NCBI RefSeq assembly: GCF_009914755.1
Contig: NC_060947.1
Source: the human T2T-CHM13v2.0 reference genome, Homo sapiens
Reading direction: 5' to 3' (one strand)
DNA: 64,000 nucleotides
Part shown: one piece after another, positions 32,947 through 34,186 of the stretch
Layout of the letters: each line of letters opens with the position of its first letter
How positions within the stretch are numbered: the first letter of the stretch is position 1
The notes under the pieces: model-generated
Seen by the model: the letters and a program-made list of their open reading frames with translations, nothing else
Database searches by the model: none
Told to the model about the DNA's origin: nothing
Made by a program: the position numbers and the translations under genes

Positions 32947-33251
32947 GGCTGGGCGCAGTGGCTCATGCCTGTAATCCCAGCAATTTGTGAGGCTGAGGCG
33001 GACAGAACACTTGAGGTCAAGAGTTTAAGACCAGCCTGGCCCAAATAGGGAAACCCCGTCTCTACTAAAAATACAAAAATTAACTCGGTGTGGTGGTGTG
33101 CGCCTGTAGTCCCAGCTACTCAGGAGGCTGAGGCAGGAGAATCTCTTGAAACATGGAGGCGGAGGTTGCAGTGAGCCAAGATCGTGCTATTGCACTCCAG
33201 CCTGGGTGACAGAGTGAGAGACTCTGTCTCAAAACAAACAAACAAACAAAA
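32947..33251 (+). mobile_element. AluS upstream of exon 9
   Basis: GGCTGGGCGCAGTGGCTCA start, (CAAA)n tail. Confidence 0.95.
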
Positions 33252-33616
33252 GTTTAAATGAGACCATCAAATTTAAGGGATTCTGATCCAGATTAAATTA
33301 ATGAATATGGTTCCAGGTCCTAGTCTCTGAGTTTTTGAAAGAGAATAAAGCTTATGTTTGTCTTTTAAAAAATATCCTAATTTCAGGTAATCTTTTAGGT
33401 ATTTGCTCGCCTAGGGAAGTTCAGGCACCAGAGGAGGACTTTTTTTTTTTAAACTATTAATTTAACAGAAGATAAGATAATTGAAGAGCTTGGGAAAATA
33501 GGTTGGGGGAGGGAGCAGAAATATTTGTGATCTTACTAGCTAACAGAATTGCTGCTTGGTTTATTACTAAAAGGGTTTTATTTCTCAAGTCTTTCTGTTT
33601 GCTTTTCATTCTCCAG

Positions 33617-33713
33617 GTAAGAAGCGCAATTCCACACTCTACATAACCATGTTACTCATTGTTCCAGTCATCGTCGCAGGTGCAATCATAGTACTCCTGC
33701 TTTACCTAAAAAG
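33617..33713 (+). CDS. IL13RA1: IL13RA1 exon 9 (transmembrane exon, 97 nt)
   Basis: Acceptor ctccag, (G)KKRNSTLYITMLLIVPVIVAGAIIVLLLYLK(R), donor gtaagg; long hydrophobic segment. Confidence 0.98.
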
Positions 33714-33876
33714 GTAAGGTAGCTGCCCAGGCAGGTTTTGCAGTTTCTGATAGCCTGTTTGCTGTGGTTATTACTTTTAGTGCTTGTGTTTTATGTCTGC
33801 CCAGTGTATTAGAAGCATGTTGCCTGTAAGTGGCTTTCGGGAGTATGACATGACAAGGAAGTATTACCACGCCCAC

Positions 33877-34186
33877 TTTCTTTTCTTTTCTTTTTTTTTT
33901 TTTTTTCCTGAGATGGAGTCTCTGTTGCCCAGGCTGGAGCGCAGTGGTGTGATCTCGGCTCACTGCAGCCTCCACCTCCTGGGTTCAAGCAATTCTCCTG
34001 CCTCAGCCTCCCGAGTAGCTGCGATTACAGGTGCCCACCACCACGCCCGGCTAATTTTTTGTATTTTTAGTAGACAGGGTTTCACCATGTTGGCCAGGCT
34101 CGTCTCAAACTCCTGACCTCAAGTGATCCACCCTCCTCAGCCTCCCAAAGTGCTGGGATTATAGGCATGAGCCACTGCACCCAGCC
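33877..34186 (-). mobile_element. AluS downstream of exon 9
   Basis: Poly-T plus reverse dimer, TSD about gcccactttct. Confidence 0.95.

What the first reader, a model, noticed from the sequence alone, without database searches (positions are those of the whole stretch)
32947..34186. Close inverted Alu pair brackets only the transmembrane exon
Seen: a sense AluS (32947-33251) ends about 365 nt upstream of exon 9 and an antisense AluS (33877-34186) begins about 163 nt downstream, with no other exon between. Established: inverted Alus pair in pre-mRNA, are ADAR substrates, and can loop out exons (e.g. TBXT) or drive back-splicing. Inference: this is a primate-specific second route to TM-exon skipping, independent of the RS motif.
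Basis: partly seen in the sequence, partly recalled or inferred. Interest (0 to 1): 0.7.

Follow-up and report, generated by a model that had tools for sequence, protein, structure and literature searches.

The report
Inverted Alu pair around IL13RA1 exon 9
Two ordinary Alu repeats in opposite orientation really do bracket the exon that encodes the membrane anchor of the IL-13 receptor alpha-1 chain and should base-pair in the pre-mRNA, but nothing found here shows that they make the exon skip, and such pairs are very common in human genes.

Summary
A sense Alu (32947-33251) and an antisense Alu (about 33882-34186) flank IL13RA1 exon 9 (33617-33713, 97 nt, the transmembrane helix). Each has its own target-site duplication, and no other exon lies between them. 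They are about 79-81% complementary. Folded in isolation they form an end-to-end stem of 249 bp, with the exon in a loop of about 625 nt.

This is a common architecture. In this window 8 of 31 neighbouring Alu pairs are inverted and no more than 700 nt apart. Random placement puts some internal exon of this gene in an equally tight pair in about 10% of trials. Published surveys list tens of thousands of such pairs, many around constitutive exons.

Exon 9 has strong splice signals, and published loop-out skipping correlates only with weak acceptors. No exon 9-skipped mRNA, exon 9 circRNA or editing record turned up. A different Alu-based route to a receptor without a transmembrane helix is already published (the AluJb terminal exon in intron 8).

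Neither Alu has an opposite-strand partner inside its own intron. Skipping exon 9 would give a frameshifted mRNA that should escape NMD and encode a soluble ectodomain.

Verdict: a real but ordinary structure, and a testable but unsupported function.

The parts
32947..33251 (+). Upstream Alu in sense orientation, in IL13RA1 intron 8. It is full length and dimeric, with an A-rich tail to about 33252. It is flanked by an 8-nt target-site duplication (32938-32945 / 33253-33260).
   Evidence: Non-CpG divergence from the window's Alu majority is 6.7%, and it sits in the younger cluster.
33252..33876 (+). Loop between the two Alus, about 625 nt. It holds the candidate branch points (33560, 33577), the polypyrimidine tract, the exon 9 acceptor, exon 9 and its donor.
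33617..33713 (+). IL13RA1 exon 9, 97 nt (not a multiple of 3). It encodes the transmembrane helix. The donor matches the consensus at 7 of 9 positions. The acceptor tract has 15 of 18 pyrimidines.
   Evidence: hub annotation
33877..34186 (-). Downstream Alu in antisense orientation, the only Alu in intron 9. In the pre-mRNA it starts with a pyrimidine tract that includes a run of 16 U. Further U runs of 6 and 5 lie in the linker. It is flanked by an 11-nt target-site duplication (33871-33881 / 34192-34202).
   Evidence: Non-CpG divergence is 4.4%.
31431..31731 (+). Second sense Alu in intron 8. It is an alternative and slightly stronger partner for the antisense Alu, and pairing with it also encloses exon 9.
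   Evidence: duplex energy -477 kcal/mol at 2154 nt; chosen in the MFE of 31400-34200 with 263 bp
26997..27269 (+). Older, J-like sense Alu, 282 nt downstream of exon 8. It is a third possible partner. It is probably the 'AluJb' terminal exon published for a soluble IL-13R alpha-1 isoform, and AATAAA lies at 27306.
   Evidence: PMC7617988. The assignment to this element is my inference.
36403..36699 (+). Diverged sense Alu in intron 10. It is a weaker downstream competitor for the antisense Alu, and that pairing would enclose exon 10 instead.
   Evidence: duplex energy -363 kcal/mol at 2216 nt
24838..25142 (-). Antisense Alu in intron 6. It is a distant upstream competitor for the sense Alu at 32947, and that pairing would enclose exons 7-8.
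   Evidence: duplex energy -419.6 kcal/mol at 7804 nt

Best explanation
These are two independently inserted, S-like Alu SINEs in opposite orientation in the introns on either side of IL13RA1 exon 9. In nascent pre-mRNA the antisense Alu is expected to pair part of the time with a sense Alu of intron 8. The nearest partner (32947) is favoured by proximity, and 31431 is favoured by energy. The result would be an imperfect double-stranded stem of about 250-300 bp, the ordinary kind of intronic substrate for ADAR editing and dsRNA-binding proteins. Exon 9 has strong splice signals. The antisense Alu also carries long U tracts of the type HNRNPC binds to oppose Alu duplexes. The most likely outcome is therefore normal, constitutive inclusion of exon 9, with at most trace skipping or back-splicing. 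Shown here: the elements, their orientation, their independent insertion, the predicted duplex, the lack of partners within either intron, and the reading-frame consequence of skipping. Inferred: duplex formation in cells, editing, HNRNPC binding, and the small size of any effect on splicing.
For: Anatomy and target-site duplications. Predicted stem. How common the arrangement is: 17 of 31 adjacent Alu pairs in the window are inverted, 8 of them with a gap of 700 nt or less; the simulation gives 10.3% for any of the 9 internal exons. PMC13019027 analysed 22,619 inverted-pair sequences within 1-kb flanks and 21,271 pair sequences around constitutive exons. It found that MFE barely separates skippable from constitutive exons (d = -0.12), with a correlation only for weak-acceptor/strong-donor exons. 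Exon 9's acceptor tract ties for the most pyrimidine-rich of the 9 internal exons (15 of 18), and its donor matches 7 of 9. HNRNPC is enriched on antisense Alus, and its knockdown increases skipping of exons flanked by inverted Alus (PMC13019944). The antisense Alu has U16, U6 and U5 runs. No exon 9-skipped isoform appears in the passages read of PMC7617988. That paper matches RefSeq XM_054327031.1 to the LOR1a isoform, so I infer this is the second of the 2 RefSeq transcripts counted in the hub table. Six full-text searches found no IL13RA1 exon 9 skipping, circRNA or editing report.
Against: The architecture is more favourable than average for a cross-exon effect. The gap is short (634 nt), and enrichment of inverted Alus near alternative exons rises with proximity (PMC13019944). 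Neither intron holds an opposite-strand competitor. Complementarity (250 of 318) is at least that of the functional TBXT stem as engineered in mouse (228 of 297). In minigenes, deleting an Alu reduced skipping in 7 of 8 reporters, though by as little as about 1%. PMC7617988 focused on retroelement-derived exons, so its silence on exon 9 skipping is weak evidence. My splice-site measures are crude counts, not MaxEnt scores. I had no RNA-seq, editing or crosslinking data.
Confidence: 0.7

Rival explanations
1. The stem loops out exon 9, so that exon 8 is spliced to exon 10 in a meaningful fraction of transcripts. This would give primates a route to a soluble IL-13R alpha-1 without a transmembrane helix.
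For: Stable predicted stem with exon 9 in a loop of about 625 nt. Every possible upstream partner of the single intron 9 Alu encloses exon 9. Skipping 97 nt shifts the frame to a 46-residue new tail. The stop lies 58 nt inside the last exon, so the mRNA should escape nonsense-mediated decay. The tail has no transmembrane-grade hydrophobic window (1.19 against 3.05). The mechanism has precedents.
Against: No skipped isoform was found in the annotation or the literature. Exon 9's splice sites are strong, whereas the published effect is tied to weak acceptors. The stem shortens the path of about 9.4 kb between the exon 8 donor (26715) and the exon 10 acceptor (36164) by only about 1.2 kb, unlike compact loci. 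HNRNPC-type U tracts on the antisense Alu should oppose pairing.
Confidence: 0.15
2. The pair promotes back-splicing of exon 9 into a 97-nt single-exon circular RNA, with or without the matching skipped linear mRNA.
For: Inverted Alus are enriched next to circRNAs (about 2-fold within 1 kb, PMC13019027). The pair is close and has no competitor within either intron.
Against: No circRNA from IL13RA1 was found in three full-text searches. The 15 papers listed were screened from the listing, and the two I opened treat IL13RA1 as a spliced gene or an mRNA target. A 97-nt circle is very short. From recall, not checked here, single-exon circles usually come from unusually long exons.
Confidence: 0.05
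3. The relevant duplex is not the named pair. The antisense Alu pairs instead with 31431-31731 or with the J-like Alu at 26997-27269. Any effect then works through a larger loop that also influences use of the published AluJb terminal exon.
For: 31431 x 33886 is more stable (-477 against -443 kcal/mol) and wins in the 2.8-kb MFE fold (263 bp). 26997 x 33886 is -382 kcal/mol. 26997 lies 282 nt from the exon 8 donor.
Against: Shorter spans are favoured in crosslinking data: detected duplexes lie closer together than undetected ones (PMC13019944). An MFE of an excised fragment ignores co-transcriptional folding and bound proteins.
Confidence: 0.1

Closest known systems
TBXT AluSx1-AluY inverted pair (exon 6 loop-out; Xia et al. 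2024, PMC10901737)
   Same: There are two Alus in opposite orientation in the introns on either side of a single exon. Both have a predicted stem-loop with the exon in the loop. Stem identity is comparable (here 250 of 318; the TBXT pair as engineered in mouse 228 of 297).
   Different: In TBXT the skipped isoform is observed and is lost when either Alu is deleted. Here no skipped isoform is known. TBXT exon 6 skipping is in frame, whereas IL13RA1 exon 9 skipping shifts the frame. Here the upstream intron is 6.9 kb with three possible sense partners.
Genome-wide exon-flanking inverted Alu pairs (Denisko et al. 2026, PMC13019027; Lee et al. 2026, PMC13019944)
   Same: The pair meets their operational definition: opposite strands, adjacent introns, within 1 kb of the exon, and a stable predicted stem.
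   Different: Their functional signal concerns exons annotated as skippable, above all those with weak acceptors. Exon 9 has no annotated skipping and a strong acceptor tract. IL13RA1 does not occur in the main text of PMC13019027 or in the held supplements of either paper. The PMC13019027 supplement is cut and holds no chrX rows.
IL13RA1-AluJb isoform (Plowman et al. 2025, PMC7617988)
   Same: It is an Alu-dependent, primate-restricted way to end the IL-13R alpha-1 protein right after exon 8, before the transmembrane helix.
   Different: That route is exonisation of one sense Alu as an alternative terminal exon with its own polyadenylation, not exon skipping by RNA pairing. It is experimentally detected, at low abundance. 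It involves a different, older Alu, probably 26997-27269.
RABL5 intronic Alu pair (Lev-Maor et al. 2008, PMC2533698)
   Same: Oppositely oriented intronic Alus base-pair, as shown there by editing, and change inclusion of a nearby exon (abstract).
   Different: There both Alus lie in the same upstream intron, and the effect needs the Alu within about 24-68 nt of the exon. Here the Alus lie 365 and about 165 nt away, on opposite sides of the exon.

Membership tests
Alu SINE (dimeric, 7SL-derived) | About 300 nt made of two 7SL-related monomers joined by an A-rich linker | tested here: met
   Two Metazoa_SRP sub-threshold hits per element, E 1.7e-11 to 5.4e-07. Lengths are 305 and about 305 nt. 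The linker is visible.
Alu SINE (dimeric, 7SL-derived) | Retrotransposition hallmarks: a 3' A-rich tail and flanking target-site duplications | tested here: met
   A-rich tail at 33229-33252, and a T-rich tail at 33882-33907 on the + strand. Exact duplications of 8 nt and 11 nt.
AluS subfamily | Subfamily-diagnostic positions relative to reference consensus sequences | not testable with these tools
   No reference consensus or RepeatMasker output was available. Indirect evidence: both elements lie in the younger main cluster of 31 window Alus, with 6.7% and 4.4% non-CpG divergence, against 14-21% for the old cluster.
Exon-flanking inverted Alu pair able to loop out an exon | Opposite orientation in the two introns adjacent to one exon, within about 1 kb | tested here: met
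Exon-flanking inverted Alu pair able to loop out an exon | Predicted stable stem formed by the two Alus | tested here: met
   249 inter-Alu bp in the MFE. Duplex energy -443 kcal/mol against -147 +/- 6 for shuffles. A more distant sense Alu wins when it is included in the fold.
Exon-flanking inverted Alu pair able to loop out an exon | Duplex forms in cells (A-to-I editing clusters or crosslink chimeras) | not testable with these tools
   No editing or proximity-ligation data were accessible. The literature search for IL13RA1 with ADAR and editing found nothing on this point, judged from the listing of 13 papers.
Exon-flanking inverted Alu pair able to loop out an exon | The enclosed exon is observed to be skipped, and skipping depends on the Alus | tested here: not met
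   Checked in annotation and literature only. The hub table counts 2 RefSeq transcripts. PMC7617988 matches XM_054327031.1 to the LOR1a terminal-exon isoform and names three alternative isoforms, none lacking exon 9. Searches found no such variant. No expression data were examined, so absence is not proven.
Exon-flanking inverted Alu pair able to loop out an exon | Weak 3' acceptor with a strong donor (the class in which stability tracks skipping, PMC13019027) | tested here: not met
   The acceptor tract has 15 of 18 pyrimidines, tied for the highest of the 9 internal exons. The donor matches 7 of 9. These are crude counts; MaxEnt scores were not available.
circRNA-producing exon flanked by inverted Alus | A back-splice junction is detected | not testable with these tools
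   No circRNA catalogue was accessible. Full-text searches found none for IL13RA1.

The most novel reading that the evidence does not exclude
The single antisense Alu of intron 9 has three sense partners in intron 8 and no competitor within either intron. It might act as a switch. When HNRNPC occupancy or dsRNA unwinding and editing is low, for example in particular immune states, exon 9 would be looped out. The product would be a frameshifted mRNA that escapes NMD and encodes a secreted IL-13R alpha-1 ectodomain with a 46-residue new tail. This would be a second, Alu-pairing-based decoy route in primates, beside the published AluJb terminal exon.
Probability: 0.08. Interest if true: 0.55.

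Novelty: new member of a known kind. Interest (0 to 1): 0.22.

Why it matters
IL-13R alpha-1 is the shared signalling chain for IL-13 and type II IL-4 receptors. A secreted form would matter for allergy and fibrosis biology. If this Alu pair produced one, it would be a primate-only layer of type 2 cytokine control and another worked example of loop-out splicing. As things stand, the locus is one of tens of thousands of exon-flanking inverted Alu pairs and has no sign of an effect. Its practical value is as a well-defined, cheap test case. One antisense Alu can be deleted to remove all cross-exon pairings at once. The predicted skipped mRNA should also be stable enough to detect if it exists.

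Tried and rejected

2. I tried to pin down which intron 8 Alu is the published 'AluJb' exon. The paper's figures S2-S3 and its primer table sit in a supplementary PDF that is too large to read. The three readable supplements hold only expression values. I fell back on the window-internal Alu tree and an acceptor/ORF scan. Those point to 26997-27269 but do not prove it.

3. I tried to learn whether either Alu is hominoid-specific from table S1 of PMC13019027. The held copy is cut, holds no chrX rows, and does not include sheets S2-S7. The negative IL13RA1 look-up there is therefore uninformative.

4. I looked for IL13RA1 circRNAs, editing and soluble splice variants in the paper library and found nothing relevant. 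The papers I opened mention IL13RA1 only as an mRNA target or for engineered soluble receptor.

5. I considered that the arrangement might be statistically exceptional and rejected this. The probability is 1.75% for this exon but 10.3% for any exon of the gene.

6. I considered other inverted repeats closer to the exon. None was reported in 32500-34600 apart from the Alu arms and one 20-nt palindrome.

7. Rfam hits to mir-1268 and mir-3135 inside the Alus are below the gathering scores. I read them as matches to Alu sequence, from recall that these families derive from Alu. They are not treated as genes.

Full report
**What is there**

Reading 32800-34300 shows a full-length Alu on the + strand starting at 32947, with an A-rich tail ending at about 33252. 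A second full-length Alu lies on the - strand. Its T-rich tail starts at about 33882 and its body ends at 34186.

- The repeat finder reports the two halves as inverted arms of 140 nt (82% complementary) and 132 nt (81%).
- BLAST of the first element against the window finds the second on the opposite strand at 80.6% over 309 columns. A global alignment gives 250 of 318 identical columns.
- Rfam gives two sub-threshold Metazoa_SRP hits per element, on + for the first and - for the second. This is the expected signature of dimeric, 7SL-derived Alus.
- Each element has its own target-site duplication, 8 nt exact at 32938-32945/33253-33260 and 11 nt exact at 33871-33881/34192-34202. They are therefore two independent insertions, not a local inversion.
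- Exon 9 (33617-33713, 97 nt) is the only annotated exon between them, 365 nt from the first Alu and 163-168 nt from the second.
- Translating the annotated exons confirms that exon 9 encodes the transmembrane helix.

**Subfamily and age**

No reference Alu consensus was available, so 'AluS' could not be tested directly. I aligned 31 Alus of the window. The two elements differ from the window majority at 6.7% and 4.4% of non-CpG positions and sit in the younger main cluster. A separate older cluster shows 14-21%, and it includes the Alu at 26997-27269. This fits S-type elements.

Primate restriction follows from established knowledge of Alu. Which primates carry these two insertions could not be checked. 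No primate genomes were on hand, and the one published table of hominoid-specific Alus is held only in a cut copy without chrX.

**Is it more than chance?**

The window holds about 32 Alus. Of 31 adjacent pairs, 17 are inverted, and 8 of those are separated by 700 nt or less. I re-placed the gene's intronic Alus at random 20,000 times. Exon 9 sat alone inside an inverted nearest-neighbour pair with a gap of 634 nt or less in 1.75% of trials. Some internal exon of the gene did so in 10.3%. The arrangement is tight for one exon but unremarkable for a gene of this Alu density.

Genome-wide, Denisko et al. folded 22,619 inverted-pair sequences lying within 1 kb of exons, and 21,271 pair sequences of either orientation flanked constitutive exons (PMC13019027, section read). 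Lee et al. count more than 150,000 sense and 180,000 antisense intronic Alus predicted to form inverted pairs (PMC13019944, figure legend).

**Predicted RNA structure**

- Folded alone, 32947-34186 gives an MFE of -600.6 kcal/mol. In it, 249 of 462 base pairs join the two Alus end to end, and exon 9 with its splice signals sits in the loop of about 625 nt.
- The intermolecular duplex energy is -443 kcal/mol, against -147 +/- 6 for 30 shuffles of one arm and -158 for a same-orientation Alu pair.
- The named pair is not unique. The sense Alu at 31431-31731 pairs with the antisense Alu even better (-477). It displaces 32947-33251 in the MFE of 31400-34200 (263 bp).
- The J-like Alu at 26997 gives -382. 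The sense Alu in intron 10 (36403) gives -363 and would enclose exon 10 instead. The sense Alu at 32947 could also pair backwards with 24838(-) across exons 7-8 (-420).
- All three Alus of intron 8 are sense, and the only Alu of intron 9 is antisense. Neither intron therefore offers a within-intron competitor, and every upstream pairing of the intron 9 Alu encloses exon 9.

**What skipping would do**

Exon 9 is 97 nt, so joining exon 8 to exon 10 shifts the frame. The protein would end after the complete ectodomain with a 46-residue unrelated tail. The stop codon lies 58 nt inside the last exon. By the usual rule, which is established knowledge, the mRNA should escape nonsense-mediated decay. 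The tail has no transmembrane-grade hydrophobic window (best 19-residue mean 1.19, against 3.05 for the real helix). If it existed, the skipped mRNA would therefore encode a soluble receptor.

**Why I still think the effect is small or absent**

1. Exon 9 is well defined. Its donor matches the consensus at 7 of 9 positions, and its acceptor tract has 15 of 18 pyrimidines, tied for the best of the gene's 9 internal exons (these are crude counts, not MaxEnt scores).
2. Denisko et al. found that predicted stem stability hardly differs between skippable and constitutive exons (d = -0.12). Stability tracks skipping only for weak-acceptor/strong-donor exons.
3. The antisense Alu presents U16, U6 and U5 runs. 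HNRNPC is enriched on antisense Alus and antagonises duplex-linked skipping (PMC13019944).
4. The stem removes only about 1.2 kb from the path of about 9.4 kb between the exon 8 donor and the exon 10 acceptor.
5. No exon 9-skipped transcript appears in what I could see. The hub table counts two RefSeq transcripts. Plowman et al. match XM_054327031.1 to their LOR1a isoform and describe three alternative isoforms (L2a, AluJb, LOR1a), none lacking exon 9 (PMC7617988; outline, passages, legends and two methods sections read). That paper targeted retroelement-derived exons, so its silence is weak evidence.
6. Six full-text searches found no report of IL13RA1 exon 9 skipping, an IL13RA1 circRNA, or editing in these Alus.

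**What counts against my reading**

Enrichment of inverted Alus near alternative exons rises with proximity. Deleting an Alu reduced skipping in 7 of 8 minigenes, with effects from about 1% to more than 40%. All 11 hominoid-specific candidates tested by Denisko et al. showed the skipped isoform, but 9 of those had been chosen because a skipped isoform was already annotated. This pair's complementarity is at least that of the TBXT stem as engineered in mouse (228 of 297).

**Relation to known biology**

This locus would be a new, untested member.

[quoted passage not shown] By divergence, by a downstream AATAAA at 27306 and by an acceptor at 27040 that gives a 16-codon tail, I infer that this is the Alu at 26997-27269. 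It is not either member of the pair examined here. A loop-out route would therefore be a further route, producing a protein cut at the same point.

**Verdict**

The structure is real and ordinary. The functional claim is plausible in form but unsupported. It could be settled cheaply by junction counts, editing look-ups and deletion of the single antisense Alu.

Noticed in passing
window 26709-26722 and 33611-33624: Exon 9 begins with GTAAGA directly after its acceptor AG, and exon 8 ends in TAG before its own donor GTAAGA. Ligating exon 8 to exon 9 would therefore regenerate a donor identical to the native exon 8 donor over positions -3 to +6.
   Followed up: partly
window 26997-27312: This is an older, J-like sense Alu 282 nt downstream of exon 8, followed by AATAAA at 27306. 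An AG acceptor at 27040 gives a 16-codon tail in the exon 8 frame. It is probably the published IL13RA1-AluJb terminal exon (PMC7617988). The paper's own sequence figures could not be read.
   Followed up: partly
window 16987-17728: This is the tightest inverted Alu pair in the window: 16987-17281 (+) and 17426-17728 (-), 144 nt apart. Both lie in intron 4, and the second ends only 64 nt upstream of exon 5 (188 nt, frameshifting if skipped). This same-intron, near-acceptor layout resembles the experimentally proven RABL5 case more closely than the exon 9 pair does.
   Followed up: no
window 33886-36699: The same antisense Alu of intron 9 also forms an inverted pair across exon 10 (85 nt, the Box 1 region) with the diverged sense Alu at 36403-36699. 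The gap is 2216 nt and the duplex energy is -363 kcal/mol.
   Followed up: no
window 29425-32950: The annotated TMEM30BP1 processed pseudogene ends exactly where the sense Alu begins (32947-32950), and it contains the Alu at 31431-31731. The Alu at 32947 may have inserted into or at the end of the retrocopy, so the pseudogene may continue beyond it.
   Followed up: no
window 33081-33132, 33926-33985, 34002-34053: There are sub-threshold Rfam matches to mir-1268 and mir-3135 inside both Alus, at 41-57 bits against gathering scores of 80-83. From recall, these families are Alu-derived, so I read the matches as Alu sequence and not as microRNA genes.
   Followed up: no
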